The position numbers and the translations under genes were made by a program. 64,000 nt of DNA, taken from Octopus vulgaris (lineage: Eukaryota). Below, piece by piece: positions 2,958 through 64,000 of this stretch. The notes below the pieces were generated by a model. It was not told the DNA's origin. It searched no databases and saw only the letters and a program-made list of their open reading frames with translations. The DNA lies in NCBI GenBank assembly GCA_951406725.2, contig OX597817.1:12524001-12588000 (forward strand), in the 5' to 3' direction. Numbering within the stretch: the first letter of the stretch is position 1; every line of letters starts with the position of its first letter.

Positions 2958-3170
2958 AAGGCAGCGAGCTGGCAGAAACGTTAGCACGCTGAGCGAAATG
3001 TTTAGCGGTCTGTCATTACGTTCTGAGGTCAAATTCCACCGAGGTCGACTTTGCCTTTCATCCTTTCGGGGTCGATTAAATAAATACCATTCGATGTAAT
3101 CAACTTAATCCTTTTGTCTGTCCTTGTTTGTCCCCTCTATGTTTAGCCCCTTGTGGGCAATAAAGAAAAT
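2958..3170 (+). mobile_element. SINE family A monomer, tail ...cccctctatgtttagccccttgtgggcaataaagaaa
   Basis: Same head and core as other family A copies. Further monomers at about 5710-5912(-), 7942-8163(-), 25127-25356(-), 29360-29540(+), 36440-36640(+), 37256-37470(+) and 63147-63380(-). Confidence 0.85.
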
Positions 3171-11937: not shown

Positions 11938-12492
11938 GGTGTGCGTACGTGTGTGTGTGTTTGTACGTGGGTTATACAAACGCAAATGTAGTTATAACGT
12001 TTTTATTAATAAACATATGTTGTTCAAAATGGCACATCCAAACATGCGGAAGATTGTATATTGATTAGAAGCAGTTACAATTCTCTGACTGCCCCCAACA
12101 TGTGGGCTGCAGCCCTTGTTGAAGCGTAGCTTAATGGTGACTGAAACTTCTCTGAGTTACAGACGGTAGACCTGTCGTTGTCGTGGTCAGGGTATGACAC
12201 ATTTGCAACAATGAAAGACCGTTATTCTTCTGTGGTAGTATTAAGCATAATCAGCCTAGATTCACCAACCCTTTGTCGATGTCCTACAAGAGCAAAGTCA
12301 TTGTCCTTCCCTGATCCTTAATAGACGAAATGATAATTTTAGGCAACTTCATTTTATTTATAAACATTGTTAGCAGTTGCTAAAACAACGGAGAATTTTA
12401 CGGATGAATTAACGTGTGTGTGCATGCGTGTGTGTGTGGGGTATGTATGCGTGTGTTCATATGTGCAAGAACTATGAACTATAAGAACTATA

Positions 12493-12892
12493 AGGCGGCG
12501 AGCTGGCAGAAACGTTAGCACGCCGGGCGAAATGCTTAGCGGTATTTCGTCTGCCTTTACGTTCTGAGTTCAAACTCCGCCGAGGTCGTCTTTGCCTTTC
12601 ATCCTTTCGGGATCGATTACGCACTGGGGTCGATATAATCGACTTAATCCGTTTGTCTATCCTTGTTTGTCCTCTCTGTGTTTAGTTCCTTATGGGTAGT
12701 AAAGAAATAGGTATTTTGTCTGCCGTTGCGTTCTAAGTTCAAATTTTGCTGAGGTCGACTTTGCCTTTCATCCTTTCGGGGTTGATTAAATATGTACCAG
12801 TTACGCACTGGGGTCGATATAATCGACTTAATCCCTTTGTCTGTCGTTGTTTGTCCCCTCTATGTTTAGCCCCTTGTAGGCAATAAAGAAAT
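12493..12892 (+). mobile_element. SINE family A head-to-tail dimer
   Basis: Second unit restarts at gtattt(c/t)gtctg directly after the tail aaagaaatag. Same structure at 25793-26208(+), 26707-27083(-) and 32152-32512(+). Confidence 0.88.
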
Positions 12893-19111: not shown

Positions 19112-19386
19112 GTAAGTATGTTAATATAATTTGGAACACTATATCGTGAGTCAGTTGCAGAGGATAAGAGCAAAATATATTGAGAAGGCAATAACATAAG
19201 TGTTACAATTGTTACAATAGATGACATAAGGTTAAAGGGTTGGTGATCAGTATCCCTGTTCCATATCCAGATCACTAAAATAGATGCCATAAATAGACAC
19301 TGCTTATCTCTCGAATCCGTGAGGGAGATCTCTCCGTGGTTGTTCGACTTGCTAGTAGTAACAGTTAACTTTCCCTCAGATTATAT

Positions 19387-24668: not shown

Positions 24669-27481
24669 TATATATATAAATGTGTGTGTCTGTTTGTGTG
24701 TCTGTGTTTGTCCCCCTAGCATTGCCGTAATTTAGCGGTTCGGCAAAATGAGACCGATAGAATAAGTGCTAGGCTTACAAAGAATAAGTCCTGGCGTCGA
24801 TTTGCTCGACTAAAGGCGGTGCTCCAGCATGGCCGTAGTCAAATGACTGAAACAAGTAAACGAGTAAAAGAGCAAAAGAGAGTAATTCAAATATTGGAAA
24901 GGATTAAAATAAATGGGGGAAAACGGATTCGTTATTTATAAAGTTAAAGATGACTGGTGAAGACTTGTTGTTTATATCATATGATTATACACTAAAGTAT
25001 AGTTTAGTTGAGAGATTTGTTTCGCAACTATATAGCTTGAGATACTATTTCACTACATGCTACATTGGACAAATGTCTTCTACTATAGTCATGGATTGAT
25101 CAAATTACCTATGTTGAAGATCATCCTATTTCTTTACTAACCACAAGGGGCTAAACACAGAGGACAAACAAGTGCAGACAAACGGATTAAGTCGATTATA
25201 TCGACCCCAGTGCGCAACTGGTACTTATTTAATCGACCCCGAAAGGATGAAAGGCAAAGTCGACCTCGGCGGAATTTGAACTCAGAACGTAGCGGCAGAC
25301 GAAATACGGCTACGCATTTCGCCCGACGTGCTAACGTTTCTGCCAGCTCCCCACCTTATGTTGAAGATCATCCGAAGGGCTGTTCCTTTTTTTATCGTGC
25401 TAGACTTAATCTGTCACCCAGTTTAACACCACCACTAGTCCTTGGGTGCCTTTAAAAAAGCATTCAGAGCTGGCTTCTGATTAGAAGTTGATTTAGACTC
25501 CTCTTCCCATTAATCTCAGGAGGCCTTGAAAATGGCTGTAACGAAGTCATATAAAGAAAGGAAAATGAAACATCTTAATGTAAAAGAGCGCTCATAAGAA
25601 AAAGAATGGTAATGCGTGAGTTGAACCCCGTATCAGGTGCAATGGCGATTATAGTATGTTTTCTCATCTGACATACCTGCTTCACATTGTCATCGTCAAA
25701 AATGATCTGAACGTATCGAGTGAAAGTCACCAACCTAAGTGTTATATAGTCAAGCATAAGCCCACCCAGGGACGAGGCTTCCTTCTTTTATAAGGCGACG
25801 AGCTGGCAGAAACTTTAGCACGCCGAGCGAAATGCGTAGCCGTATTTGGTCTGCCGCTACGTTCTGAGTTCAAATTCCGCCGAGGTCGACTTTGCCTTTC
25901 ATCCTTTCGGGATCGATAAATTAAGTACCAGTAACGCACTGGGGTCGATGTAATCGACTTAATCCGTTTGTCTGTCCTTGTTTGTCCTCTCTGTGTTTAG
26001 CCCCTTGTGGGTAGTAACGAAATAGGCATTTCGTTTGTCTTTACGTTCTGAGTTCAAATTCTGCCGAGGTCGACTTTGCCTTTCATCCTTTCAGGATCGA
26101 TAAATAAAGTACCAGTTATGCACTAGGGTCGATGTAATCGACTTAATCCCTTTGTCTGTCTTTAGTTGTCCCCTCTATGTTTAGCCCCTTCTGGGCAATA
26201 AAGAAATATATATAGTCAAGCAGATATTTCACGATTTCGAAGTCGAAATTAAACATTCGGGTGAGACAAATGAAGCATGCACTAATAATCAACTAATCTC
26301 AAAATTCGATTTGAGCAACTGTAAAGATATAAATATGAATATTCATGTCCAGCACATTTATCAGAGTTGGCAGTTAAATTGTTCCCTCAGCAACAATATG
26401 TTCGAAGCCCACTGAGTCTCTCCCATATAAAAGCTTTCCGCTTGTGTAAAATATACACACAAAGAGCCAATGGGGATGTCTCTTCGTAGCCATTTGGCCT
26501 GCTAGAAATAGCAGCCAAATATTCTTCAAATTACACCCTACTCTATTTAAAACAGAAATATATAATGTATAATATAGCCATTGATAATATATGCTCTATG
26601 TCCCGTAAAATAATGGAATGATCACAGCTGGAGCGTCTGTGATCATAGGTCAGTTCAAATAGCAATGGTTATCAAATATGAAGATACGGGGATGGCATAA
26701 GGATATATTTCTTTACTACCCACAAGGGGTTAAACACAGAGGGGGCAAACAAGGACAGACAAACGGATTAAGTCGATTATATCAGCCCCAGTACGTAACT
26801 GGTACTTAATTTATCGACCCCGAAAGGATGAAAGGCAAAGCCGACCTCGGCGGAATTTGAACTCAGAACGTAAAGACAGACGAAATACCTATTTCTTTAC
26901 TACCCACAAGAGGCTAAACACAGAGGGGACAAACAAGGACAGACAAAGGGATTAAGTCGATTACATCGACCCCAGTGCGTAACTGGTACTTAATTTGTCG
27001 ACCTCGGCGGAATTTGAACTCAGAACGTAACGGCAGACGAAATACGGCTACGCATTTCGCCCGGCGTGCTAACGTTTCTGCCAAGGATAGCAAGCGGGTG
27101 GAGGTTTGGGGTGCATCAAGAGAAGCGGGATGCTAGAACCACAATGTGTTATATTGCTAGTATTAGACATAATAATGGTAGCATAGCAAGGATTCACAGA
27201 CGAAGTGAGAGAAGCAGAAACTGTTTCGGCATGGAAATGGCAAAGGCATATATGAGAAAAAAATATTAAAGCTGAGAAGAAAAGAGTGAGACATTATAAA
27301 TTCTTTGTAAACGCAGACAGACAGGTAGATAGAGACAGAAAGACAGACAAGTAGACAGGCAGACAGATAGACAGATAGATATGTTTGATAGATTTATTTT
27401 TTAAGATTTCCTTTCTTCCGTTTCTACCATAATCAACAGCATCTTCATCATTGTGATTACCATCTTCATTTCTCTTCACAG

Positions 27482-29671: not shown

Positions 29672-30358
29672 TTTATCGACCCCAAAAGGATGAAACGCAA
29701 AGTCAACCTCAGCGGAATTTGAACTCAGAACGTAAAGACAGACGAAATACCTATTTCTTTACTACCCAGAAGGGGCTAAACACAGAGAGGACAAACAAGG
29801 ACAGACAAACGGATTAAGTCGATTATATTGAACCCAGTGCGTAAGTGGTACTTATTTAATCCGACCCCGAAAGGATGAAAGGCAAAGTCGACCTCGGAGG
29901 AATTTGAACTCAGAACGTAACGGCAGACGAAATACCTATTTCTTTATTACCCACAAGGGTCTAAACATAGAGGAGACAAACATGGACAGACATAGGTACT
30001 AAGTCGATTATATCGACCCCAGTGCTTAACTGGTACTTAATTTATCGACCCCGAAAGGATAAAAGGCAAAGTCGACCTCGGCAGAATTTGAACTCACAAC
30101 GCAAAGATAGACGAAATACCTATTTCTATTTCTTTACTTCCCACAAGGGACTACACACAGAGGGGACAAACAAGGACAGTCAAACGGATTAAGTCGATTA
30201 CATCGACCCCAGTGCGTAAATGGTACTTAATTTATCGACCCCGAAAGGATGAAAGGCAAAGTCGACCTCGGCGGAATTTGAACTCAGAACGTAACGGCAG
30301 ACGAAATACCGCAAAGCATTTCGCCCGGCGTGCTAACCTTTCTGCCAGCTCGCCGCCT
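29672..30358 (-). mobile_element. SINE family A tandem array (~4 units, ~180-bp period)
   Basis: Repeated gaactcagaacgtaa..gacgaaatac|ctatttcttta junction; only one complete head, at the right end. Confidence 0.88.
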
Positions 30359-30373
30359 TTCCAGTAATGCAGA

Positions 30374-34000: not shown

Positions 34001-36237
34001 GCGGGAATGTACTAATTTAGAAATATGTTCCTTTATATAAGGAATGAATCGAAAGTCCCTAACTTCAACGTCAATCGGAAGCTTCTAGAATGTTCGAGAA
34101 TTTTCTTGAAGGTCGAAGGAGATTACTCTCGTTAAATCCCTTTTTCGTTTTACTTTCCTGTTTGACCACTTTTAAAATGTTTAAAACCATCTTAATTTTA
34201 TTTACCATAGCAATTTCTCTGTCACCCACTTTCAATACTTTCACCCTATGAGAGAAGCTGTAATATGTGTTTATAAATATTCGTTAGAGAAATATTTCTG
34301 TTTGATTATGCGTGCACGCGTGTATAGTCGTGTGTGCACGCGCATATCTGCAAATTAAGTGAATTAGGATTGGTTACACTAAATTCCCAATATGCTTTGT
34401 ATAATTGTAATTTGTATCTAATTCTGATTACCCCAGTCAGTTTTAATGCTATTTAAACAATAATAAAAAACAAACATAGATATAAATAAATAGAAAAAAC
34501 TACAATTGTTGATTTTCTGCTGAATGCTAGATTGTAATATTTTCTTTAACTCTAATTAACCATTATGATATAAAAATTGAAATAGCAAGAGATGTTGCAT
34601 TATTACTTAACTTGCTCAACGTGACTCATTTATACAATAGCAAATTGTTAAAAATTTAGGAGGCCTAAACGGAAGTTACATGATCTAAGTGAGCTGCTAA
34701 GTGACACAAAACCCAAGAGAACTAACTGTAAGGAGTATGTCGTCATTGTTACTTCGGGAAGTATCACAATTCAATGCAATGAAGATTTCAGTTATTTCCT
34801 CATTGCTTATGCGTTTTAAGCAGGCTGCAAACTTTTTCTCTCTTTACAGCCACTTTATGAATATTTTTATCCTTTCCCAACTACATAGTAATTTGGCCTA
34901 TTACTTTATTCTGTTCATGTTTGATGTTATTAGACGTGAATTCATTGTGCTTATTTACCAAAGTTATATAATTCTTGATTTTATATCAGTTGAATATTAG
35001 TTTGTAAGCACTTTTCCATGAACCAATTTTACAATAAGCCATTGACCGAATTCTTACATTAATTGATGAATTTCCTCAACAAGCCAAATTTTCTCTAATT
35101 TACATTCCTGACTCTGAGAAAAACTTGAATTAGGAAGCTACGTAAAACAAAACGCTTCTTGGTTTGGTAGTACAGCTGTTAGATTTCCCTTTAAACATTG
35201 TTCCAGGTTTTATATTTCTTAAGATTATTGCACATCAAATGAGCACTCTTCTGTTTCCCTTATGACAACAAGGAAGCCTTTATATAGTTGTTCGATCTGC
35301 AAGTACTCTCAGCTAAATCACCCTCAGGTGCATTCCAGTGTATTAAAACGAATAGAGCACAGTGGATAATCTTTATATATAAAAGTGAAGTTGTGTGTCT
35401 GTCTCCTACGATTTAGATACCTAACTACTCCCACATTTTTCGGTGCAGTTTAGCCAAAAGCGGGTATCTTATAGTCGTGATTCATATCGAGCCCTTCTGG
35501 GTATTAGCGCGCGTCTACGATGAGTCTACGATTTTAAAAAAATTTACCATAATTTTTTTCCATTTTAATGCATTTTTTTCGCTATTATATAAGGGAAGTA
35601 ACTCTCTAAAAATGTCTACGATGAGTCGACGATTTAAAAAAAAATTTACCATCATTTTTTTTTCCATTTTCCATGCATTTTTTTGCTATTTTTTGGCTAT
35701 AGCTCTCTAATAATGCTTATATAGTTATTTCATTTACAAACCCGAGCAACGCCGGGCGATACTGCTAGTGTGTTCTAAATAAATAAGATAGGCTGTCGGA
35801 ACGATTTAATCGTTTATGTCTCATCTAAGGCTACACAGAAAACTAATCACTACTTGATGATCTTATCACATACGAAATACATGGAACAGCAAAATTGAGA
35901 TAGCATTCTCAGACTGCCATATTGCATAACAATATAACCAGACTACTCCCTGAAACGTCACACAATCAATCATTGCATGAAAAGACATGCCGAAAGCTGA
36001 GACCAGACAAGAGTATGATATGTTAGTTATTCTGGGCTTCTAATGAATATCTCTGAGTGTTCAATCGACTATCTCTGTATCAGATCAAAATGAGCTGGCT
36101 TTAATACCAACGACCACAATATCTTAATTATCCCTTTTACAGTTGCAACTGTAACTGCAAGGTCCATGATCTTATTTTTGTAGAGTTGAGTAAAATGATG
36201 CTGGTTTTTAATAACTTGTTTGATTGCTTTAAATATA

Positions 36238-37853: not shown

Positions 37854-38469
37854 TACGTGTGTGTGTGTATGCTTTTGTGCTTTGTTTGTCCCGTACTACC
37901 GCTTGGCAACCGGTGCTGGTGTGTTAACGTCCCCTGAACTTAGCGGTTCAGCAAAATAGTTCAATAGATTAAGTAACAGGCTTTAAAATATCGGGATCGA
38001 TTTGTACTACTAAATATCTTCCATGCGGTGCCCCAGCATGGTTGCAGTCTAATGTCTAAAAAAAATAAAAAAGCTAAAATAAAATAAAATAAAAACAAGT
38101 ATTTTTTTATCAGAATATAAATATTTCAAGTGATCAGCCACAATAAAATAATGATATGGATCAATGAAGGAGTCTATATGATCGCTATGTTAGAAATAGC
38201 AGCCAAATTTCCTGAAATTACATATCACATTACATTCATTGAGTAATGTCGTCTGCTGTTTGAAAGAACCAGACGTAGCTGGAATGCGTTCCACTATTTC
38301 CTTATACATAACAGTTAAAATTCATCTTAAACTAATTCGTAACAGTCTCATTTTCTATTTTTTAGTTATGTGGTGAGTTATTAAATATTACGTAACATCA
38401 ACAACTATGCCTACTTTCCACAGCCTCAGACTTCTAGCCGAGAGTGGATCCCGCGGAACAGCTAAAGTT

Positions 38470-38890
38470 CACAAATCACATCATACCAACAACTCTCCAC
38501 TCAGGATATAGCGATCTTCTCAAATTCCACAGAGCAAGTGATCAGGTGGCAACTGATTGGGCCCTGGGAAGGACATATGGGGGGGGGTCATGAGAGGAAG
38601 CTTGCCGAATACCAGGAGCTGGTGAAGCAAGGAAGAAACCAGGGCTGGCAGGAACGTTGTGAGATAACTGAAGTGGGCTGCCAGCGGTTTGTGGGGCGTT
38701 CATTCTGTGAAGCTCTGACTAAGCTTGGGAGTAGTACTACTGCAGCAAAGAAGGCCATAAATTTCATCACTGAAATTGCAGAAAAGGCTTTGGACAAAGA
38801 GGACAGACCGATGGTTCGCTGTTAATGGGGTGCAAGATAAGTCAACAGGGCAAGAGGGTCTGATGCTAAATGACTTGAAACCGCCTGAAA
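38470..38890 (+). pseudogene. RLE-type non-LTR retrotransposon 3' remnant (Hero/NeSL-like)
   Basis: DIAIFSNSTEQVIRWQLIGPWE...HERKLAEYQELV...GW..CE.TEVGCQRFVG matches the PD..E-LTVPWE..K..KY..L..GW..EVGCRGF restriction-like endonuclease pattern. Confidence 0.78.
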
Positions 38891-40389
38891 CCACAGAAAC
38901 ATGATGGAGGTCAGAGTATACGTGAGATGTATCTTGGAATTAATTATTGATTGTTTAAAAGTTGGTACAAGCATAGATATTGTTACAGGAATGATATAAT
39001 TGATTGCTAATGTTTATTTTAATGACATTTGGGTAATGAAAACAAAATAGCACAATTATTAACCCATCTTACATATATTTCTCAGAAGTAAAATTCTTAT
39101 GGACTGTTCTGGACATTTTTTTTTATAGAAATATACTATGAAAGTTACTTTATAAATGTATATTTTTTCCTATTTAAACTATTTGTGATTTTAACCTACT
39201 TCTGTCTGTGAGGTTGGCCAACTTTTACAAACTGCCTTTTGCGCTGTTTCTATTTTCCCCTACACGTTGACTCTATTTCCTGTAAACCTTATGGTGGCAG
39301 TCAGAGAATTTGTTACTTGAAATTTAATGCCGAAGCAACAAACACAAAACACGCACTTTTTAGAGAGTGTATGAAATGAACAGGATGGAGAAGGAAAACC
39401 TTTAACAGAGACATGACCTGACAGCCACATCAAGTTGTCTTACATGTCATCAAATAATTTGCAGATGTTCTGTTTATGTCTTAAGTAAAAGTACACATTT
39501 CTCATCGTCGAAAAAACAAGACGGATTTCTCATGTGAAAAGTTCAACCTTTAATAACTGGATTCAATTTGCAAAGAAGTAAATGATAAAGCCAAAGTTCT
39601 TAACTATACTTAGCTCACCTACCTTCATTAACCACCCTTTCATCAACTGAACATTAACCTCGTTCCGACCTCCACCCCACCCTCGCTCAAATTCTATTTC
39701 CTCTCTGGTTTGACATCCTCTCGATAATAACATGTGCGTGGTTATATGGTCTCCAGATTTGCTAAAAATAAGAGCCACATATCCTTCAAATTATATCTAG
39801 GGATTGTCACGGCTGGAATGCTTTTAGTCATGGGTCTACTCGATCAAGTCTGACCAGTGACTAAAAAAAACCATAGCCCTTACCCTCTCTTTTTTTTTCC
39901 TTTTTATTTCGGAGTGAAAACTTTACTGCTCACTTTAACACTACCATCAACGGATTTCTTCCTCAGAGTTTATTTTGTTCAAAGCGTTTTTACCCGACGT
40001 CGCGTTTTTCTACAAACGTTGATGAAGCCAATGTTTAGGCCATTGACTACATTGATCCCGTGAACTTGAAGTACTTTTCCAGACAAACTTTTAAAAAATA
40101 ATTGTCACAGCGTTACAAATGTAACGTGGGAATTAAATATAACGGAATTGATGGTATCAATCCCAGAGAGCTGCAAGTTAAAAATTACGATGTTTGAACT
40201 CAAAGAAGTATAGCTAAATATTTTCAAGCATTTCAATCCAATACCCTAGTATTATGTCACTTCAACACCATAATTTAATAACGAAGATTATCTAATACTA
40301 GCGGGATACGTGAATATTTCACGGAATTAATGGTAAACCTATTGGGTAATTTCTGAAAACTTTATCCAAAAAACTTGATGTAATCAATG

Positions 40390-40458
<69 letters not shown>

Positions 40459-40461
<3 letters not shown>

Positions 40462-41673
40462 GAGAAACTCTCAAAATACAAAGACCTGGAAATAGAGGTA
40501 ACTAGAATGTGGAATCTGAAAACAGAAACAATTCCTATCATAGTAGGTGCATTAGGCATGATAAAAAAATATTCAGACAAATACATAACAAAAACACCAG
40601 GACTTACAAACACATATAACATACAGAAAATTGCACTACTAGGCACTGCACACATCCTACGCAGAACACTTTCCATACAATAACCATCAGAGCATCACAA
40701 CAAATCACAGCACATACCCAAGGCACACAGAGCTGCGCTCGGTAGTGAAGTGAAAGCACGCTATAAAAATAAAACTACTGAATAATAATAATAATAATAC
40801 AGCAAAATGTGGAACCTGAAGACTAAAACAATACCTGTTGTCATAGGTGCCCTGGGAATGATAGCAAAAGGGGCTGATTGCTACCTAACTCAGATACCAG
40901 GAAACCCAAAAATGGCAGAAATTCAAAAGATAGTGCTCGTGGGAACTGCTCATATCCTACGCAAAATACTTTCTATGTAATCTCAAGGTTTAAAACAAAA
41001 TACAAAGACCTGGAAATAGAGGTAACTAGAATGTGGAATCTGAAAACAGAAACAATTCCTATCATAGTAGGTGCATTAGGCATGATAAAAAAATATTCAG
41101 ACAAATACATAACAAAACACCAGGACTTACAAACACATATAACATACAGAAAATTGCACTACTAGGCACTGCACACATCCTACGCAGAACACTTTCCATA
41201 CAATAACCATCAGAGCATCACAACAAATCACAGCACATACCCAAGGCACACAGAGCTGCGCTCGGTAGTGAAGTGAAAGCACGCTATAAAAATAAAACTA
41301 CTGAATAATAATAATAATAATACAGCAAAATGTGGAACCTGAAGACTAAAACAATACCTGTTGTCATAGGTGCCCTGGGAATGATAGCAAAAGGGGCTGA
41401 TTGCTACCTAACTCAGATACCAGGAAACCCAAAAATGGCAGAAATTCAAAAGATAGTGCTCGTGGGAACTGCTCATATCCTACGCAATTCTATGTAATCT
41501 CAAGGTTTAAAACAAACATTTTTTTTTAGACATCCACTCGTACAACACAAAAAAACAACCAAATATATGGCACACTAGGCATAACAACAACGTGAACTTC
41601 CAACCTGTTGTCTCTTGAGGTCTCTGGGTGAGACTTGGAGCCAACTTGTACAAATATAAAGCAAAAGTCAAAC

Positions 41674-41704: not shown

Positions 41705-42702
41705 CAAAGAATTGGAGCCGTATAATTCTTCTTGCTTCGCCAAGGTGTTGGGCAAGTTTAAAATGATTTAATGTATCCAAATATGGTAATTTGTCTGTTC
41801 CCTTTTCAATCTTCATGGACACTACTAACCCCTATGAGAAACACTGAATTAGGCAAAACGGGAGGGTCAAGAGGTCACTATTGTTGAGCTGTGTTTAGAG
41901 CATCGATTGGCCTTAATCCGATCCTATGTGCAGTACACTTAATTATACACATTTCATTTTCTCTTTATTTAATATTGTCTAGCTTACTTAGATATAAGAT
42001 TTAGACAATATGCACCCCCAACCTCATTTTAGATTTTCATTTTGTATTAGTTACTGATTATTAACTAGCTTAATTGCCAATAAACTGGAAAATTAACCCG
42101 GCTATCCGGAATATTGAAATATTAGCAGTTTGTGCATCATAGAGTATTGTTGAATACTCGTCTTGAAACAGAATCTCTTGTAGACGTATAATGTTAAAAA
42201 AACACCGAAATATATCAGTAGCAGACAAAAATCGTCCAGTAGCGGTCACCATTTATAAGAGAAACTATCTCAAGACAAATACTGCAGTATTCTAGGCTGT
42301 CAGCACTGTATATACTTTAAGTATGATACATAGATTGATATTTTGAACTTATATTGTTTCTGTCGCTCATAGCGAATTAAAATATTGCCTTCTGAAAATA
42401 TTAGCTGAGATAAACTAGTGCCCTATCCTGTAGAAGGGGTTTATCTTTCACAATCGAGTGCCCTATCGTGTGAAATGAGTTTAACTTTCATCAAATCATT
42501 GCAATGAAACCAGAACAATTAAAGCACATACCCTTACGGAACTGTAAGGATTTTTTGAAGACATATTTCACACTTACAAAGATGACTATTTAAGAAAAAT
42601 AATAGTTTTGTACCACTTTCTCATAGTACTTTTCCTACTGGAGGTATTTTGTTTTAAAGATTCTTATTTTCATATTTCCATATTTTCTTTTTTTTTTTTC
42701 AG

Positions 42703-42944
42703 GATTCTTACCTTCTCCGTTTCTCTTCGCATATCTTGTGGACAGTACCTGTATCCAATGGAATCGTCAACACTGTGGAGAAAAAGGTTCTTGTTATTTA
42801 TATAACTTACAGGAATTCCATGTAAAATATTTTTCACTTCAAAGTGTTTTAAGCATGTTGTGCTTCATATTTTTATTAGTTGCTGCCTGTTTTGGACTAA
42901 ACTCAGAGAAATATTTACCGAAAGAAACAAAAATAACAGATTAA
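42703..42944 (+). CDS. OATP/SLCO last coding exon (TM11 end, ECL6, TM12, stop)
   Basis: Long polypyrimidine tract plus cag. Translates GFLPSPFLFAYLVDSTCIQWNRQHCGEKGSCYLYNLQEFHVKYFSL...ITD*, the OATP P.P..F...D.TC..W...CG..GSC..Y motif. Confidence 0.94.
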
Positions 42945-45171: not shown

Positions 45172-46077
45172 GTATGTAGGTAGGTAGGTAGGTATGTATG
45201 TATGTATGTATGTATGCACGTATATATACAGATAAATAAAGAGAGAGGGAGAGAGAGAGAGGTGAAGCTGATGAACTCACGATATATATATATATATATA
45301 TAAATAAATTAAAAGGGGGGGCTTAGTAGCAATGAGAACCTAAAGGCGAAATTAATTTTGCCTATATATGTATATATATCCAAGAACCCAAGCTCGGGAT
45401 CAAACAAGTGATTCGGTTGTAACATTTTTTTATGAGATGAATTACATAATTTCTATAGGTGCTTCACTAGCGTGTACCAGTATTCTGTACGGGTAATTGT
45501 TAAAATACATAGACACTCTACAGGTCGCGAGTTACAGAACTACGCCCCAATACTACTAACATCTATTTGAACTATATCCGATATTAAGATTATAACTTCC
45601 TGAAATAATATTCCAACTAAATATTATTAAATCATCAGTGAAGTTAAACCAGACTCCATTTGTTGACAATCCTTATACAAACATACATACATACATACAT
45701 ACATACATACATACATACATACATACATACATACATACATAGTGCAATTTAAACTGGGATTGCATGAATACTATCCAATACTTACAACTATAAATATTAC
45801 TAAATCATCAATGAATTTAAATTAGACTCCACCTATTGACAATCCTTATACAAATATACATACATACATACATACATACATACATACATACAAACATACA
45901 CACATACATACATGCATACATACATGCATACCTACATACATACGTACAGGCATGGATGCATGCATACATACATACATACATACATACATACATACATACA
46001 TACATACATACATACATACATACATACATACATACATACATACATACATACGTACATACATATATACATGCATACAT

Positions 46078-46735
46078 GATGGCTGCCCCCTCGTTATCGA
46101 GTATGGCCATTGCACGAAGCTTAACTGTTATTGGTGCTGTGATCGAATGTGACTTTTATTTGCTTTTTAAGGCTACAGCCAGCCATTCAGTTGAGACTCA
46201 CAGCATCATCAACAATCATGAACAACGTTGTTATCGTGCAATGCCTGTGCAAGAATATTTTTTTAAAGTGAGGAAAGGCTGTGCACTGAGTCAATACCAC
46301 TCACTAAGTAACAGCAGCCATAATCCGAAAAGAAGAACAAGTCAACATCATCGGTAACTACTGAGCCGCAGGTCTTATGTCGGAGTTATCCCAGTTACCT
46401 GAGTTAACTTCTCATAGAAGGATGCCCTAACAAAGGCTAGGAGTCCTTCACTCCCAAATGTTTAACCGCGCGATCGGGTATTCAGTCCGGTTATTTCTAT
46501 GTCCCCGCGCATGATACAGCCTTAAGCCTTAAGAGAAAAAAAATACACATTTAACGGATGACCGTTGACTCTCAAGAGTTCCTCCGCCCTTTGACGGGTT
46601 TTGTTTTTCATCCCGCAGGGTGTCCAATAATCACCTTCCTCACCAAGCAAGCTTGGTGGGGTTGCCGGTTTAGTCGCCGACGGCCCGAGCATGCAACAGG
46701 TTGTACTGGATTACATGTTACCAGTAGCACCTGTA
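46078..46735 (-). mobile_element. Putative non-autonomous RTE-derived element inserted in (CATA)n
   Basis: The minus-strand 5' part (ggcgactaaaccgg...gtcaaagggcggaggaac) and 3' end (tcgataacgagggggcagccatc + (atgt)n) resemble RTE UTRs from memory; no ORF. Confidence 0.5.
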
Positions 46736-47661
46736 GCACTCGGAAGTATGTACATACATACACACATAGTGTGACTTAAATTGGAATTGGATGACATAGT
46801 TAATACGTATACTTAAGATATTTTATGAACAAATTATCCTGTTTGTATTTCTCTCTTTCTCTTTCTATCTCTCTCCTCTATATATACTTAAATGTGTGTG
46901 TGTGTGTGCGTGTGTGTGAATGTGTGCGTATGCATGTACGTATGTGTGTCGGTATGTGAGAGTAGGGATGTGCATGTAATGACTGTGTGTGCATGAATGT
47001 GTATGTAAGTATGTGTGTGCATGTGTGTAGTGAAATTTTGAAAGCTTGGTCAGACGGAGAAGAAAAAGAAAAGTAAAGGAATACTTTCCTGTCCTTCTTT
47101 CTGCCTTCCTGTCTTTCTTTCATTTTTCCCGTTTTCTTCCTCTAACCAAGCCTCCAAAAATTCGCCACATACGCATACGTTCACACAAGCATGCACAGAG
47201 AAAGAGAGAAAGAGATACTTTCTGAACAATAGCTTAAACAAAATTGATATTTTGAATTGTCATTAACTTTAACGACTGTGTAGCAACTGATCATAAGAAT
47301 AAAATACAAATTCTACCATCCCAGAAAAAAACCCTTTTCTCTCTTACTTTCTGTCTTTTTTTTCTCTTTCGCTCTTTCTTTGCTACCCTTCTTTCTGTCT
47401 TCCTGTCTTTCTTTCTGCTTTTCTCTCTTTCTCCCATTTTTTCTTTTTTTCTTCTCTCTCCAACCAAACTTCCAAAAATTAACCATACACATACTTACAC
47501 ACACGTGGATGCACATACATACATACATACATACATACATACATACATACACACATGGATGCACATATATATAGATAGACAGATTACAAAAGGAACATTC
47601 TTTTCCTCATTCAACTCCTATTCTTCAGCCCGCACGCACAGACACACTCACACACACACAC

Positions 47662-48696
47662 CGTGGGGGTACGGGGTAGAGATAATTTTTATGGTGAATC
47701 AAAAGATTACGAAGGTATACCAGAAACATTGGAGCTACCCAATGAGGACAAACTAGATGCAATGTTAGAGGGGAGACCTCCGATGTGTCACAAGTATGAT
47801 GAGAAGGGGCACATTAGAAGAAGGTGTCCACAAAAACGATGGAAACCACAGAAATAGAAATACAAGAAGGCGTAATGGAAGTGGAGTGGAGGACTCAGGA
47901 AGTGGAACAGAACACAGTTTATGGAGGCCAAAACAAGGAAGAGAGAGAGGGGAGGAGTTCACCACCTAAAAGGGACCAACAACAGAAGAAACATGAAGTA
48001 CAGGAGGAAGTGGACCAAACAACAACGACAAGTAGAAGCAGTACGCACTTGGGGTCACCGAAGAAAAATGCCACAAGCAGAAGAGCAACACCAAGCAAAC
48101 ATACAGACTTACAATCACACAAACATACAGATTCACAGACACAAAAACACACAGACATACTGACTCATAGAAATATAGACAGACAGACACATGATAACAC
48201 AGAGTTACGGAAACATAAAAGCATAGATACACAGACACAACACACAGACACACAAGACGTACACAGAAACAAACGTTTTTAGTGACATATCATACGACCC
48301 AAAAACTGGAGAGGAAAATAACGAAAATGAAAGGGATTATTAGGGTGAATCTTTCAGAGGGATATGATAGGGATATAAGATGTATTCTGATGGAGGAAGG
48401 AAAATATAGAACTCTGAAAGAAGCTTTTCTTTCAGATGTAAATCTACTGAAGCCCGAGGTGAGTATTGAACCCAGCGCCCTAGTGGTGAATGACATAAAA
48501 TGGGAAGAACTGTTAAAGACTCTTTGTTTGAAATAATTGAAACCATGTAATCATCCCGGAGCGGGGCCGGGGTGACGATTTCACCTTCATTTCACCTTCA
48601 TTGTAAAATTTCATTTTATTCATTTTTCATGTATTAATTGTCCCCGCATGTATGTTTGTCCCCTCTATGTCAGCCCCTTGTGGGCAATAAAAAAAT
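47662..48696 (+). mobile_element. Decayed ORF1-only Tx1/L1-like element (HAL1-like) with 3' tail
   Basis: WGYGVEIIF...IPETLEL...LEGRPPMCHKYDEKGHIRRRC is a degenerate zinc knuckle similar to the adjacent LINE ORF1. It is followed by a ~150-nt UTR ending aataaaaaaa with no ORF2 in between. Confidence 0.65.
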
Positions 48697-51600
48697 CCCC
48701 TTATTCTTACTGCAAGTCTCTTGTCGTTTGAACGTTTTGCCAGTGTTTCCTGTGTCATTTGTTGAATTGTATTGTTGTGGTGAGATGAGGTTGTTTTGCG
48801 GTTGTTTTTGTTTAAAAAACTGTTTATTGCTTCGTTGAAGCAGATTGTTTTCAATTCCACCCTGTGGGGGAATTATTATTGAACTGTAAGTCTTTGAGCT
48901 AATTCTGTGGGGCGTAAGCCCAAATTCTTCTGTGTTTGGCAATTTGCCGTAAATTGTGTAAAAACAACATCATGGAGTCACCATTGAGTTCAGTGGAGTC
49001 GCCGGGTCGACTAATTATTGATATGCCTGTTTTTGTAACAGGTGAAGAGAAAAAAATCACCGGCGGTGACGCCAAAAAAGTTAAACTTTGCCGAGGCAGC
49101 ATGAAAGGAGAGAAACATTAACACGGAGAAAAGTAACTTTAAAAAGTTTATGTCTATATTAAAAAAGGAGGGGACGGAAATACAAGTAGCTCCTCCAACA
49201 GAAACAACCGAGCAAGCAAATAGAAAAAGAATTATCTACAAAACTTACAACGTCGAGAAGAAACGAATAGATAAAACTGAGGAAAATTTTATTGAAAAAT
49301 GCCTCAAGCCGATATGGTCGGATATAACATACATGACTAGAGGCAAACGATTTGGAACGGTCGAGGTGAGGTTTATATCAGAGGAGGTGGCCAAGCGGCA
49401 CTCTTCAGAAACTTTGAGAACCGAGGAGGTGGTTATTCTTCCCATATATATGGGAAGAAGAACATCGAAAATAAAAATTACTAATATTCCTCCGGGAGTA
49501 GATGCTGCTTGGCTATTGGCGGCGATAATAATGGACCATTTTCCAGGCCACAGTAGTGGAGGAAGTGAATTGGAGGGGACAATTCGAAAACAGGTATATC
49601 AATAATTAGTCAACCCGGCGACTCCACTGAACTCAATGGTGACTCCATGATGCTGTTTTTACACAATTTACGGCAAATGCTTGAACATGTTAATTCAAGC
49701 AGAAGTCTCCACGCTGGAAGAAATTCCAGAAATAATAAACATCGGAGAGGAGAGGCTTATTGTCTTCGTGGAATGCAGGAAGCCTAAATGCTTTAACTGC
49801 GGGTTAAAGGGCCATATAAGTTCCGAATGCAAACCCGCAAAAAAGGGCAGGAAGAAAAGGTAAGAGAAGAAACAACAGTGGAAGCATCACCTACATCAGC
49901 AGAGATGACACCAACACCATCAAAACAAGAGGAAGATAGCGACGATAAAGAAAAAGAGAAGGGGTGGTCGACTGTTTTTAAAAAAAAGAAGAAGAAAGGA
50001 AACACAGACTGCCCTTACCAAACTGAAAAACAAAAGGATAAAAACGAAAAAGAAAAAGATGGTGCCCCAGCATGGCCACAGCTCATTAGCTGAAACTGGA
50101 AAAATCAAAATCAAAAAAATATGGCCTTTAAGGTATCGAACAACAGACTGATTAACCGTTAGGCAGCTAATTCATCTACCAAACTGGTAGAAAAAACTTC
50201 ATCAAAAGACTTTCTTATTTACAGGATAGGCCGGAAGGATTACAGACGGATTAAGTCTGAATTTTTTCATGACGTGGGTCCTCTTAGGATGGTCTATTCT
50301 ACATACATTTACAAGGGTCTATGTAAAAAGAAAACCCACGAGCCCGAGAGAAAGAAAAAGAGGAGGAAGGTGAATCCTCCTCGAACCACTGACGCGGGGT
50401 AAGTCATGTTTAGCATTCATGAAGGTTGTATAAATGTGCGTGGCTTGGTGTCAAGCTGGAAGCAAGGTCGCTTCCTTAATGAGATCAGGTCACGTAATTT
50501 GGATGTTATTGTTGCTACAGAAACCCGGTTAAGAGGGCCAAGAGATCTGTCCCCCCTGTTGGATGGTTACGAGCTGTCCTTTTAGCGGAATCAGGGTATT
50601 GGTCCTATTTAAAAGAAACCGGTCAATGACTTGACGTTCAGTCGTGGTAAGATTATCAGACTTGTTGCAATTTATGCACTCACGACAACTGGGCAAAGTG
50701 ATTATTTTCGGAATCTGGAGAAGTTTCTTGGTACATCACATTCTTTAGTTGTGCTAGGAGACTATAACACAATCTGCGACGCACGCATAGACTATGTTGG
50801 CTCGTGTACAGATAGAAAAGTTAATCCTTGCTTCCAGGAACTGCTAAGCCGCTTTGAGCTGGTTGGAATTTCCGAATGCTCCATTGTGGACATGGTTAAG
50901 CAGCGACGGTTCTTCCAGGTCGTACTTAGAGTGTTAATTAGAAAAGCAGATAGAAATATAGCTAAGTGTCCACAGTTTCACTCGGTCAGCTACAGTGATC
51001 ATAAAATGGTCACCTGTAAGCTTGACATAGATAAGCTATATAATAGAGATCCCGGCAACTAGAAATTTAATAGGTTCCTTTAGGCGATTAAGGCGTACAG
51101 AGACCGGATTAAGTTGTTGATTCAGAGGGCATTACCGATTCCATTATTAATAATAAATGGTGGTATGCCCTCAAGCGAGCCATTAAATTTGAGTCTATTA
51201 GACATAGCATAGGTTTAGTGGCTAGAGAGGCTAGGAGGGAATCAGCTTTAGTTAAGGACTTAGAGCAAGCCATGTTAACTGGCTCTGCGGCTCAGGTGAA
51301 GGCCAAGAGACTGGCGTTAAACCAGCACCACGAAGCCAAACAAATGGGTTGCATTGTCAGGGATGGGCTTCATGCAGTGGATTGTGAGGAATTCAAGGCC
51401 TCGGGATGGGTCCGAGTGGTGGAAGCTCTAGGTGGTGATAATGTCACAATCCGATCTTTGACGAACCAATGAGGTAGGTTGATAGACGAACCCGAGGTGA
51501 TGTGTGAGGCTTTCAGGAGCACTTCACCCAGCTTTTCGTAGGGAGCGGCGGACCGGATAGTAGGAGGGACTTAACGGGCTTCCTCGCCGGGCTGCCGCGT

Positions 51601-52388
51601 CTCTCGGGGCGGGACGCGGAGTGCTGTGAAGGGCTGATCACGCCGAGGAGGTAATTGAGGCTATGGCAGACTGCGGCGCGGGTAAGGCGCCAGGACTGGA
51701 TGGTCTACCCTATGAGTTGTATAAGAGTATGCCAGATTTTTTCGGGCACCTGCAGGCGAATGTCTACGCGAACTGGCAGCAGAACGAGTTTATTTCCAGA
51801 TCTGTGCGCCGGGGAGTGATGACGCTTGTCAGAAAACTACCGGACAAGAGGGATTCCGTTGATAATCTTCAGCCCATCACTCTGCTAAACGCAGAGTTAA
51901 AGATTTTGGCCAAAGGATTGTCGAAAAGATTGGTGCGTGTCGCGGATGGTTTGATCGGGGAGGCACAGACATATGCCGTTCCCAGCAGAACCGTCCAGAA
52001 TAATCTCCATCTTATACGGTACACTTTAGAGGGATTTAATAGTGATTCTGGCAAGGGTGGGACACTGGTCCATTTAGACCAATCAAAGGCTTTTGATAGG
52101 GCTAACCATCGGTACCTGGTGTCCGTTCAGGCGCAGTTCGGCCTGGGTCATGACTTCCTCAGGTACATCATTCAGATTCATGACAACGTCGACTCGGTAA
52201 TTCGGGTGAACGCTTTCTTATCGAAGCTTTTCAACATCAAACGCTCGGTTCGTCAAGGGTATCCGCTCTCCCCGCTTTTGTATGTAATGGCTCTTGAGCC
52301 ATTACTGCGAAAATTGAGCGGCATCCCGAGACAGCCAGGTTGTGGAAAGTCAGTTTCAGCTTACGCGGATGACATCACCATCATCTAA
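48697..52388 (+). mobile_element. Decayed Tx1/L1-clade LINE (5' UTR, ORF1, APE and RT; 3' truncated)
   Basis: ORF1 from ATG 48972 with CFNCGLKGHISSEC knuckle. ORF2 from about 50406 with INVRGL, VVLGDYN and SDH (APE), then KAPGLDG, PITLLNAELKILAK, LDQSKAFDR, VRQGYPLSPLLY and SAYADD (RT). Many stops and frameshifts. Confidence 0.92.
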
Positions 52389-52998
52389 CCGAAATGGATC
52401 ACCTACAAAGGTTCTCTATAAAAATGTCAAGCACCGAAGACAGTGGGTAGGGAAAGGAGAAACACCGGCAACCTAGGCTAAAGAAGTTCTTCACCCACGT
52501 AAGGTGTTGTTATCTGTTTGATGGGATATGAAAGGTTTAGTCTACTTTGAACTTTTAAACCCAAACCAAATGATAACATCTTCAAACCAAATATGGTTTG
52601 AAGACGAAAGGTGTTTTTCCATCAGGATAATCCTCAACCACATACAGTGAGTATGACATTCTAAAGGCTGGAGCAGTTTGAATGGGAAACGATGCCCCAT
52701 CCACCATATTCGCCGGACATTGCCCCATCTGATTATCATTTATTCTGCAGTCTTCAAAATCATTTGGACGGAAAAAATATGAATTGTGTAGGCGAGGTCA
52801 GAACAGTACTGGATGAGTATGTTCCGTCACGGACAAGTAAATTTTGGAAGAGGGACCTTGCAAGTCTACCAGACAGGTGGAAGAACATTGTAGGAAATGA
52901 AGGAGAATATATTTTAGATTAAAAAAGAACTTTGTTTATCTTAATTTTGAAAAATAAAAGAAGTGTAAAAAAAACTCATTATTTATGGGATGACCCAA
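52389..52998 (+). pseudogene. mariner (DD34D) transposase C-terminal remnant plus right TIR
   Basis: LHPRKVLLSV*WDMKGLVYFELL, FHQDNP.PH and HPPYSPDIAPSDYHLF; terminus ttatttatgggatgacccaa|TA. Confidence 0.9.
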
Positions 52999-53182: not shown

Positions 53183-53401
53183 AATATTTATCCCCACTTA
53201 AATGTGGGTGTTCTGTTAGAATTTTACTGCAGTAGATATCATGAGAAAAACTCTCATATTAGCTTTCGGTACAAAATGCATTCTTGTTTAAAACAAGAGT
53301 ACATTTTGCCCCAAAATCCAAAGTGAAAGTTTTTCTCGTGGTAACCACCGCAGTATAGTTTGTTCTAACAGAACACCCACGTTTAAGTGAGAATAAATAT
53401 T
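53183..53401. mobile_element. Small MITE / inverted repeat
   Basis: About 39-bp imperfect IR aatatttatccccacttaaatgtgggtgttctgttagaa / ttctaacagaacacccacgtttaagtgagaataaatatt. Confidence 0.7.
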
Positions 53402-61984: not shown

Positions 61985-64000
61985 TGTATGTATGTATGTA
62001 TGTGTGTCAATGTCTGCATGTGTGTGCTAATTCAGTTTGTAAACTGGGACTTCAGCTAGACTCTTTATTTTACTGAGAAACAAAGAACGTTGATTGACCC
62101 AATTTTGTGAAAATAACAACATACGTGACACAACCCACTCCTATTCACAAATGACATCACCCCTTCTGTCTTCTTAACTGTCCACACATGCAACTTTCTA
62201 TACACAACCTATTTATTTGATTAGAAACCTTGAAAACGTTTTCCAGTTTAGTTTTTTTTTTGAAAAGCTCGATGACACAGTCGTTGCATATGTCAAAGTA
62301 ACAGCCACAATTTAAAAGCACTTCTTCTTTACATATGAACAACTCAAAACTGAAAACTGCTACTAGTGGTAGGCCAGAGAAGATAGATAGTGTCCATTGG
62401 TCAGAGATAGTACAAACCTATTCGGTTTTGCGAAGTTTTTGATAGTTCCTGCATAGAGAAGCAGCTGTGAATTGGGACCTCTAACGAATCATCAACTAAT
62501 CCACTGCTCAGCATAATGTTACCGATTGAAAACGCTTGTATTAGTGAATGCCTGTTGAAACCTCATCCAGCCGGCGCCAGCCCGACAACCAGGGCGCTCG
62601 GCCGACGGTGCTGCACGCTTTGCGGCTCTACGATCGACAAGATGTCCTCATCTTTGTTGTTAGCACGTTTCGGCTGGTGTAGCCTCCAGTCGTCATGTTC
62701 ATATGATAGTGAATGGATGATAACAAAGTTTCGCGCTTTGGCGACCACTGTATATTCAATGTCACATCCAAACGGGCAAGACTATGTATAAAGGCGATGA
62801 GTAGACAAAACGAACACTGACAATAATACATTTGGATGAACGGGGGAAGCTTTTTTTGGAAGGGAGGCTGAGGAAGGACCCTAACTTTTTCGCGAAAAGT
62901 TTTCAAATTATCTGAAAACTCAAAAGATCGCAGAACAAATTGATAATGTTAACTGATATTAAAAACAAGTTAAAATGTAATACTAATAGATCGAAAATAT
63001 TGTATAAATGTTCGATCATTAAATAGTAACAGTTGATGACATTTTTATACTCATTAATCATTGTCCAATAAAAAATGAATTCGAAAGAGGAGTTGAATGC
63101 AGAAGGGTTTTTTTTCTTCTTAAAACCGAATGTTGATAATCTTAATACCTATTTCTTTATTACCCACAAGGGGCTAAACACAGAGGGGACAAACAAGGAC
63201 AGACATAGGTATCAAGTCGATTACATCGACCCCAGTGCGTAACTTGTACCTAATTTATCGACCCCGAAAGGATGAAAGGCAAAGTCGACCTCGGCGGAAT
63301 TTGAACTCACAACGTAACGCAGACGAAATACCGCTAAGCATTTCGCCCGGCATGCTAACGGTTCTGCCAGCTCGCCGCCTTATAATCTTAATACCATTTC
63401 GCAGAGTAGCATTTATATCGAACCCTTCGATACATAGAGCCAAATTTTTTCCTTGTTTTGTGTTGATAACTCTTTATTTAATTTAGTTTAGTTCAGCTTA
63501 GTTTAGTCTAGTTTAGTTTAGGTACTAAAATAATCCTCAAAAGAATATGAAGTTTCTGGAACCACGGGTAAAACTTTAACTACAGTTCTAACGATGTAGC
63601 GAATATCACAAAAATTAATCACAACAATTGTTCAACAGTTCCTTGGACAAGGTCGTGAATATTTTGGCTCTGATTTGTATTGTGTGGGTGGACCCAAATG
63701 CAGCTCTATTTTAAAATGATGGCAAGATTATCAACACATTCACCTCCAAGAAAAAAAAGACCTTGTCTATTCTCGTGTCTTGTTTTTTTCATCTCAAATT
63801 TCTGCCCGAAAACTTGAACATTGCCCAAAATAGAGAGGTGCATTTCCCAGCCCACTACGTTGTGCGCCGATGGTAGAACAATGACGTGAAATATAAGAAA
63901 AAATAAGAGACAATGTAAATAAGAAGCATAAAGTAGAACAAGTTTGACTGGTACAGAAAGAATGGAAATTGTATCCTTATTTGTTTACAACCAGCAGGCA

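What the first reader, a model, noticed from the sequence alone, without database searches (positions are those of the whole stretch)
47662..48696. ORF1-only Tx1-like element whose 3' end matches the tail of SINE family A
Seen: after a decayed zinc-knuckle ORF1 and short UTR, the element ends tgtttgtcccctctatgtcagccccttgtgggcaataaa (48653-48691). This is nearly identical to the terminal SINE A tail tgtttgtcccctctatgtttagccccttgtgggcaataaag (e.g. 3125-3165), while sequence further upstream differs. Known: SINEs borrow the 3' end of their partner LINE; ORF1-only HAL1 elements exist; Tx1-tailed SINEs are rarely reported. Inference: a three-member system of Tx1 LINE, half-LINE and SINE sharing one RT-recognition tail.
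Basis: partly seen in the sequence, partly recalled or inferred. Interest (0 to 1): 0.75.

Follow-up and report, generated by a model that had tools for sequence, protein, structure and literature searches.

The report
Octopus half-LINE sharing a SINE tail
In octopus DNA, a broken jumping gene that lacks its own copying enzyme ends in the same 45-base tag as an abundant short repeat, which suggests, from a single copy, that both are copied by an enzyme from the Tx1 group of retrotransposons, a partnership not found in the papers searched.

Summary
Observation confirmed. The window is octopus DNA. 47662-48536 is a 5'-truncated, decayed L1/Tx1-type ORF1 matching residues 187-403 of a 404-aa O. 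bimaculoides ORF1, so it keeps its natural C-terminus. It is followed by a 115-nt T-rich UTR with no ORF2 trace and a 45-nt tail matching SINE A (E 7.7e-9). New support: SINE A's tail is a swappable 64-nt module, because the same SINE core carries three different tails here, and the match lies wholly inside it. None of 14 SINE A tails is a lone fragment. The oldest SINE copies carry the element's tail variant. No target-site duplication flanks the 45-mer. The two decisive points could not be tested, since no octopus genome was available: whether autonomous LINEs end in this tail, and whether ORF1-only copies form a family. Best reading (0.55): a Tx1-derived half-LINE and a tRNA-type SINE sharing a LINE-derived tail. 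Rivals: a one-off ORF2 loss, or an old truncated SINE. New variant of a known kind; interest 0.5.

The parts
47662..48536 (+). 5'-truncated, frameshifted L1/Tx1-type ORF1 (C-terminal half), ending at its natural C-terminus; stop TAA 48534-48536
   Evidence: tblastn to P0005 residues 187-403 of 404, 41-59% identity per segment; relatives P0005 and P0014 end at the same motif
47786..47827 (+). decayed CCHC zinc knuckle (second Cys replaced)
   Evidence: aligns to the knuckle of the neighbouring ORF1, E 2e-8 pairwise, which is Pfam zf-CCHC E 1e-5
48537..48651 (+). 115-nt 3' UTR-like segment, T-rich, with a 9-bp GC hairpin at 48551-48575; no detectable ORF2 remnant
   Evidence: 47% T over 48576-48652; no similarity to the neighbour's ORF1-end/ORF2-start (912 of 1000 shuffles as high); hairpin z -1.18, not significant
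48652..48696 (+). 45-nt tail shared with SINE A: 4-bp hairpin 48673-48685, AATAAA 48686-48691, short A-run
   Evidence: hairpin predicted by RNAalifold with no two-sided changes
48697..48971 (+). putative 5' UTR of the adjoining LINE (GT-rich, single copy in window)
   Evidence: position before ATG 48972; composition; no other window match; boundary is inferred
48972..50402 (+). neighbouring LINE ORF1 (decayed, full length, CCHC knuckle), a different subfamily from the focal ORF1
   Evidence: 52-55% to Octopus sinensis / O. vulgaris proteins P0001, P0002; groups with them at 99/98 support
49587..49678 (-). inverted 92-nt copy of 48942-49033 inserted inside the neighbour's ORF1
   Evidence: 97% complementary
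50406..52385 (+). neighbouring LINE ORF2: endonuclease and reverse transcriptase, broken, 3' part lost
   Evidence: Pfam RVT_1 E 8.8e-19; Exo_endo_phos E 0.039, below cut-off; best solved relatives L1 ORF2p 68 bits vs R2 58 bits
52386..53001 (+). mariner-like transposase fragment that replaces the LINE's 3' end
   Evidence: ORF 52665-52922; label rests on a recalled mariner motif; Pfam gave 0 families
2958..3169 (+). SINE A copy, closest tail variant to the focal element
12492..12892 (+). SINE A head + two body-tail units; the downstream unit has the focal-like tail
25792..26207 (+). SINE A head + two body-tail units; the downstream unit has the focal-like tail
29672..30360 (-). SINE A head + three body-tail units + a partial fourth
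63151..63381 (-). SINE A monomer with a 14-bp target-site duplication beginning GGTAT

Best explanation
The focal element is a 5'-truncated retrocopy of a non-autonomous, ORF1-only derivative (half-LINE) of an octopus Tx1-group LINE. Its parent RNA would be made from the LINE's own 5' promoter and encode only the RNA-binding ORF1 protein. It would be reverse-transcribed in trans by ORF2p of an autonomous family that recognises the 3' tail (short hairpin, AATAAA, A-run). SINE A, a tRNA-type SINE, picked up the same LINE 3' end as a 64-nt module and uses the same enzyme. This copy went in directly on the 5' end of a full-length Tx1-like LINE, either by an end-to-end template jump in one reaction or because both favour the same site. 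Shown: the anatomy, the shared tail, the modular SINE tail and the adjacency. Inferred: a multi-copy ORF1-only family, the same tail on autonomous LINEs, and recognition of the tail by the RT.
For: (1) ORF1 runs to its natural end and is followed by a UTR-like segment and the tail, with no ORF2 trace; both joins fall at the ORF2 boundaries, as in ORF1-only LINEs. (2) The SINE core-end motif occurs 28 times in the window: 13 with tail A, 3 with a tail ending in an (ATT)-type repeat, 8 with a third tail, 4 other. Tail A is therefore an exchangeable 64-nt module, and the match covers its last 45 nt and none of the core. (3) 0 of 14 SINE A tails are lone fragments; all are joined to the body. (4) No duplication flanks the 45-mer (longest exact match 6 nt; 105 of 1000 random pairs reach 7 or more), while 4 of 9 SINE A loci have clear 14-17 bp duplications. 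(5) The 4 SINE units sharing the focal's variant are the most mutually diverged, 12.8% vs 7.3%; 11 of 1001 quartets reach that. This fits the focal-like tail, with intact AATAAA, being ancestral; the site was chosen after seeing the data. (6) The only two Tx1-like sequences found in 64 kb touch head-to-tail on one strand; by hand estimate, under 1% by chance. (7) SINE A shows site preference and serial stacking: 7 of 7 internal junctions restart at one internal GGTAT-type site, and 2 of 8 outer ends begin GGTAT (background 0.00075 per base). This resembles Tx1-mobilised SINEU-3 (PMC4494074, passages).
Against: Only one ORF1-only copy was seen. No autonomous LINE 3' end with this tail was seen: the neighbour's is lost, and both scans of bacterial/archaeal genomes were empty. 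The focal differs from all 14 SINE tails at 3 otherwise invariant columns, against a mean of 0.86 private changes per SINE copy; that is compatible with it being an ordinary old SINE copy (Poisson p 0.056, or 0.21 if two adjacent changes are one event). The focal ORF1 does not group with the neighbour's, so the neighbour is not its direct parent. The whole element has no duplication either (longest exact match 7 nt), and its 3' flank does not begin GGTAT, so a shared target is not shown. The tail hairpin shows no covariation above shuffles (301 of 500 as high), and fold z-scores are weak. L1-clade LINEs rarely donate SINE tails (3 SINEs among over 800 LINEs, PMC3747384), which lowers the prior.
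Confidence: 0.55

Rival explanations
1. The tail is native to a Tx1 LINE and SINE A borrowed it, but the ORF1-only shape is a one-off: ORF2 was lost at this locus by deletion, or by a template switch during this single insertion. There is no half-LINE family.
For: Single copy in the window. The locus was rearranged in other ways: an inverted 92-nt copy inside the neighbour's ORF1 and loss of the neighbour's 3' end.
Against: A random deletion would have to remove all of ORF2 while sparing the ORF1 stop and the UTR; no ORF2 remnant was detected. ORF1-only families have arisen repeatedly in the L1, Jockey and CR1 clades (PMC5786205; PMC5753468).
Confidence: 0.22
2. The 45-mer is SINE-derived: an old, heavily 5'-truncated SINE A insertion, or a chimera in which the RT started on SINE RNA and switched to a LINE RNA just past ORF1. 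Tx1 LINEs end differently.
For: The focal matches the older SINE variant at all its polymorphic sites, and its divergence is within the range of SINE copies. The T after the A-run matches the SINE terminus. Similarity stops sharply at 48652-48653.
Against: 0 of 14 other tails are lone; there is no duplication around it; it lies in sense orientation 115 nt after the ORF1 stop, behind a T-rich UTR-like stretch, and inside the exchangeable module.
Confidence: 0.15
3. An ORF1-only family exists, but it and SINE A both took the tail from a LINE of another clade, so the enzyme is not Tx1.
For: Tails are exchanged freely among SINEs here and in bivalves, whose partners are CR1, CR1-Zenon, L2 and Nimb (PMC11481361, passages).
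Against: The two other LINE types with visible 3' ends in the window (Dong/R4-like and Hero/NeSL-like, labels recalled) end differently, and the tail profile finds no further hit. AATAAA plus an A-run and 14-17 bp duplications fit the L1 group (general knowledge).
Confidence: 0.08

Closest known systems
HAL1 (half-L1), HeT-A, Ag-Sponge: ORF1-only non-autonomous LINEs (PMC5786205 and PMC5753468, passages)
   Same: ORF1 kept to its end, ORF2 absent, LINE-like 3' end
   Different: Those come from the L1, Jockey and CR1 clades; this ORF1 has a CCHC knuckle and a Tx1-type layout. Family status is unproven here (one truncated copy).
SINEU and Tx1-Mar of crocodilians (PMC4494074; part 1 of 5 and passages)
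   Same: A SINE inferred to be moved by Tx1, with target preference, tandem stacking and a roughly 15-bp duplication
   Different: SINEU has snRNA heads, and no LINE sharing its 3' end was found; the link rests on shared targets. Here the link would be a shared tail, and the head is tRNA-like.
SINE/LINE tail pairs (58 in PMC3747384, Table 1; seven partnerships in bivalves, PMC11481361)
   Same: A short shared 3' module with a small hairpin, exchanged among SINE cores
   Different: No partner in the table rows seen is named Tx1; L1-clade pairs listed are plant and algal; bivalve partners are CR1, CR1-Zenon, L2 and Nimb.
Octopus tRNA-Deu / tRNA-Core SINEs and L1-Tx1 LINEs (PMC8967140, passages; PMC13282606, parts 1-2 of 3)
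   Same: Both classes are abundant in octopus; 13 recently active L1-Tx1 families are reported in O. vulgaris
   Different: In the text seen, these papers give class counts only; no partner LINE or half-LINE is described.

Membership tests
Tx1 clade LINE (focal element / neighbour) | RT groups with Tx1 in an RT phylogeny | not testable with these tools
   No Tx1 reference RTs were available; the RT is closest to L1 ORF2p among solved structures, 68 vs 58 bits for R2; the Atlas gave only generic RVT_1 clusters
Tx1 clade LINE (focal element / neighbour) | Two ORFs, ORF2 with APE endonuclease before RT (neighbour) | tested here: met
   RVT_1 E 8.8e-19; Exo_endo_phos only E 0.039, below cut-off, plus recalled APE motifs in the translation
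Tx1 clade LINE (focal element / neighbour) | ORF1 of RRM + CCHC type in an animal (PMC5203782 calls such ORF1s consistent with Tx1) | tested here: inconclusive
   CCHC met (zf-CCHC E 1e-5 in the neighbour; homologous decayed knuckle in the focal); RRM only hinted: model pLDDT 47, best fold hit E 6e-3, none at E 0.001 or better, top hits mostly RRM proteins
Tx1 clade LINE (focal element / neighbour) | Target preference (common, not universal) | tested here: inconclusive
   Two elements stacked at one site; no duplication or target motif recovered
ORF1-only non-autonomous LINE (HAL1-type) | ORF1 present to its natural stop and ORF2 absent | tested here: met
ORF1-only non-autonomous LINE (HAL1-type) | Multiple dispersed copies with the same ORF1-3' junction | not testable with these tools
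   1 copy in 64 kb; no octopus genome available
ORF1-only non-autonomous LINE (HAL1-type) | Retrotransposition marks (5' truncation, A-tail, target-site duplication) | tested here: inconclusive
   5' truncation and AATAAA + A-run present; duplication not found
SINE/LINE shared-tail pair | SINE 3' module homologous to a LINE-type 3' end | tested here: met
   E 7.7e-9, confined to the 64-nt module, but to an ORF1-only element
SINE/LINE shared-tail pair | Same tail on an autonomous RT-encoding LINE | not testable with these tools
   The neighbour's 3' end is lost; scans of bacterial/archaeal genomes empty
SINE/LINE shared-tail pair | Conserved stem-loop with compensatory changes | tested here: inconclusive
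   4-bp hairpin, 93% of 60 cells paired, 0 two-sided changes, not above shuffles
tRNA-Deu/Nin SINE (SINE A) | tRNA-derived head with A and B boxes | tested here: inconclusive
   Box-like motifs seen by eye against a recalled consensus; ARAGORN found 0 genes and Rfam no tRNA match
tRNA-Deu/Nin SINE (SINE A) | Deu/Nin central domain | not testable with these tools
   The label is recalled; motif searches in the supplements of three papers found no sequence to compare

The most novel reading that the evidence does not exclude
Octopus has a three-tier Tx1 system: autonomous Tx1 LINEs, an ORF1-only half-LINE family and a very abundant tRNA-type SINE, all recognised through one 45-64-nt tail. The SINE also inherits a GGTAT site preference that makes it stack into its own copies. 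This would be a tail-recognising ('stringent') SINE/LINE pair for an animal L1-group element and a Tx1-derived half-LINE, neither of which was found in the 10 literature searches made.
Probability: 0.4. Interest if true: 0.72.

Novelty: new variant of a known kind. Interest (0 to 1): 0.5.

Why it matters
SINEs make up about 11.6% of the O. vulgaris genome (PMC13282606), yet the papers seen name no enzyme donor for them. If this tail is a Tx1 3' end, it names the donor for one dense family (14 tails in 64 kb here). It would also give an animal test case for an open question: whether L1-group reverse transcriptases ancestrally recognised a specific RNA tail or only poly(A) (posed in PMC3747384). 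And it would add Tx1 to the clades that produce ORF1-only parasites. If the 45-mer is only an old SINE fragment, the locus is ordinary repeat debris.

Tried and rejected
Search for other copies or partners outside the window: the tail pattern in bacterial/archaeal genomes gave 0; the RT query gave 58 pattern hits and 0 confirmed. Neither bears on octopus. The viral and metagenome collections stayed unchecked, and no octopus genome, Repbase or Dfam was available. Protein search with the focal C-terminal piece: 0 of 141 candidates; Atlas: no usable hit; pairwise similarity of that piece to the neighbour's subfamily was not significant; its homology is shown only through P0005 and P0014. Cluster sizes and names for most ORF1 relatives stayed unknown. 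The idea that the 115-nt segment holds the first codons of ORF2 (a 'CIN' triplet in one frame) is not supported: there is no in-frame ATG before it, and the alignment is at shuffle level; it is not fully excluded, as the parent family's ORF2 start is unknown. Extending the SINE homology leftward was not significant, although both sequences have TAAT 18-19 nt upstream, at the module boundary. A degenerate duplication around the whole element is at chance level. Rfam found only low-scoring hits, mostly miRNA and snoRNA models on simple repeats, all 109 below gathering score. The ORF1 structure model was too poor to rely on. Literature: 10 searches found no Tx1-tailed SINE or Tx1 half-LINE; the library lacks most subscription papers, and the 2015 octopus genome paper was not held. 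Ohshima and Okada 1994 and Bao and Jurka 2010 were seen only as citations. Supplements that may bear on this could not be seen: the O. vulgaris transcript FASTA of PMC9115989 was unreadable and 4 of its 8 files were not searched; the Zenodo repeat library of PMC13282606 was out of reach and its supplement was listed but not read; one file each of PMC4758252 and PMC4824008 was not searched.

Full report
Setting. The window is repeat-rich animal DNA. Protein hits name Octopus sinensis, O. vulgaris and O. bimaculoides, so it is octopus; the species was not determined. Exons of an OATP/SLCO transporter gene lie on the + strand at 18851-19126 and 42627-42941; the finding lies about 4.7 kb past the latter.

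The observation. It matches SINE copy 3125-3168 at 41 of 44 columns, E 1.5e-12, and 13 further SINE tails. A profile of the last 111 nt of 14 SINE A ends, built without the focal sequence, hits 48652-48696 at E 7.7e-9 over positions 65-110 only. Extension to the left is at shuffle level. The match is real, about 45 nt, and ends sharply.

The ORF. A search of 1.84 billion proteins with the knuckle region gave 20 hits at E 0.001 or better. I read 15 of them; two were unrelated RNA-binding zinc-knuckle proteins and were left out of later work, and five others were not used. The best full-length relative, P0005, is UniRef A0A0L8HJ83 from O. bimaculoides. The focal DNA matches its residues 187-403 of 404 in four segments that change frame, at 41-59% identity. 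So the element is cut at the 5' side, in mid-ORF1, next to a (CA)n tract, and keeps the natural C-terminus; P0005 and P0014 stop at the same motif. After the stop at 48534-48536 come 115 nt with a GC hairpin and a T-rich stretch, then the tail, AATAAA and a short A-run. No ORF2 similarity was found in the 115 nt (912 of 1000 shuffles as high against the neighbour's ORF2 start).

The neighbour, not in the finding. From 48697 a second element follows on the same strand: about 275 nt of putative 5' UTR, a decayed full-length ORF1 (48972-50402; zf-CCHC E 1e-5), a 3-nt spacer and ORF2 with endonuclease and RT (RVT_1 E 8.8e-19). Its RT is closest to L1 ORF2p among solved structures. With an RRM/CCHC-type ORF1 in an animal this points to Tx1 (PMC5203782, passages), but no RT tree could be made, and the RRM is only hinted by a poor model. 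The LINE breaks off at 52385 at a mariner-like fragment (label recalled), so its 3' end, the decisive piece, is gone. Its ORF1 groups with P0001/P0002 (99/98), while the focal groups loosely with P0004/P0005/P0009 (82/82) in a 57-column tree of 15 rows: different subfamilies. These two are the only Tx1-like sequences found in the window. Head-to-tail contact suggests linked insertion, by template jump or by a shared site; this is inference.

Is the 45-mer a LINE end or a SINE fragment? Four results favour a LINE end. First, the motif that closes the SINE core occurs 28 times and is followed by three different tails (13, 3 and 8 copies; 4 other), so tail A is an exchangeable 64-nt module, and the match lies wholly within it. 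Second, all 14 SINE A tails are joined to the body; none is lone (a 15th, at 32486-32509, is joined through an internal deletion). Third, 4 of 9 SINE A loci have clear 14-17 bp duplications, while the 45-mer has none. Fourth, the four SINE units that share the focal's variant are the most diverged from one another (12.8% vs 7.3%, 11 of 1001 quartets), as expected if the LINE-like state is ancestral; this site was picked after looking, and an old SINE insertion predicts the same. Against: the focal's three private differences are not clearly more than SINE copies carry (p 0.056-0.21); the whole element also lacks a duplication; and the 4-bp terminal hairpin, though predicted independently, shows no covariation.

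SINE A behaviour. SINE A forms arrays of one head and several body-tail units. All 7 internal junctions restart at the same internal GGTAT-type site, and 2 of 8 outer ends begin GGTAT with that word present in both copies of the duplication. Units within an array differ in tail variant, which fits serial insertion better than local duplication. The preference could come from the endonuclease or from pairing of the RNA end with the target; this was not resolved. Tx1-mobilised SINEU-3 behaves alike (PMC4494074). The focal's own 3' flank is not GGTAT.

Mechanism. Most likely (0.55): an ORF1-only Tx1 derivative and SINE A both carry a LINE-derived tail and are copied in trans by a Tx1 ORF2p through target-primed reverse transcription. 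Rivals: tail native but ORF2 lost once at this locus (0.22); an old truncated SINE or SINE-primed chimera (0.15); tail from another LINE clade (0.08). Taken together, the tail is a Tx1-type LINE end at about 0.75.

Comparison with what is known. ORF1-only LINEs are described for L1 (HAL1), Jockey (HeT-A) and CR1 (Ag-Sponge) (PMC5786205, passages; PMC5753468, passages). A 2013 list of 58 SINE/LINE pairs names no Tx1 partner in the rows seen and notes only 3 L1-tailed SINEs among over 800 L1-clade LINEs (PMC3747384, parts 1 and 8 of 8 and passages). For SINEU no LINE with a shared 3' end was found (PMC4494074, part 1 of 5 and passages). Bivalve partners are CR1, CR1-Zenon, L2 and Nimb (PMC11481361, passages). 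Octopus papers report tRNA-Deu/Core SINEs and L1-Tx1 LINEs as classes only in the text seen (PMC8967140, passages; PMC13282606, parts 1-2 of 3). PMC4758252, PMC5804259, PMC4824008, PMC9115989 and PMC10294476 were seen as passages and added no partner for an octopus SINE. Ten searches found no Tx1-tailed SINE or Tx1 half-LINE, but Repbase, Dfam and most subscription papers were out of reach, so an existing database entry is possible. The element works like a HAL1-type parasite; membership is not filed, as multi-copy status is untested.

Verdict. Observation confirmed; interpretation partly supported, and somewhat strengthened by the modular-tail result; the two decisive tests need an octopus assembly. 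New variant of a known kind, interest 0.5; the full three-member reading has probability 0.4 and would deserve about 0.72.

Noticed in passing
window 12492-12892, 25792-26207, 26707-27083, 29672-30360, 32152-32510: SINE A arrays of one head plus 2-4 body-tail units; 7 of 7 junctions restart at the same internal GGTAT-type site, and 2 of 8 outer duplications start GGTAT: apparent self-targeting.
   Followed up: partly
window 283(-), 5758(-), 37421(+); 9991(+), 13887(+), 15195(-), 23509(-), 24811(+), 44114(-), 54963(-), 59460(-): The same SINE core end is joined to two other tails, one ending in an (ATT)-type repeat and one belonging to a second abundant SINE family: tail swapping among at least three modules. 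Their partner LINEs were not identified.
   Followed up: partly
window 48697-52385: Full-layout Tx1-like LINE (ORF1, 3-nt spacer, ORF2 with endonuclease and RT), decayed, directly after the focal element; 3' end lost at a mariner-like fragment.
   Followed up: yes
window 49587-49678: Inverted 92-nt copy of the same LINE's ORF1 start region (48942-49033, 97%) sitting inside ORF1; possibly a templated insertion.
   Followed up: partly
window 40362-41420: Dong/R4-like 3' fragments (label recalled) repeated in tandem, each ending in (TAA)n and running straight into the next unit.
   Followed up: no
window 38466-38900: C-terminal piece of a restriction-like-endonuclease LINE (Hero/NeSL-like, label recalled; Pfam 0 families).
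   Followed up: no
window 33591-34016 (-): 141-aa low-complexity frame with repeated 'EAVT' motifs, no Pfam family, next to a diverged SINE A-like fragment; origin unexplained.
   Followed up: no
window 45600-47600: Degenerate repeated units with (CATA)n tracts and CT-rich blocks upstream of the focal element; element type not identified.
   Followed up: no
window 18851-19126 and 42627-42941 (+): Exons of an OATP/SLCO transporter gene (Kazal_2 E 1.5e-7, OATP E 2.4e-11).
   Followed up: partly
window 53183-53401: Palindromic segment of about 220 nt (78% self-complementary), probably a MITE.
   Followed up: no
P0002, P0019: ORF1-derived sequence sits inside gene models: P0002 is named 'EPM2A-interacting 1-like', and P0019 appears to carry an ORF1 fragment within an RGS-like protein (label recalled); likely annotation artefacts.
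   Followed up: no
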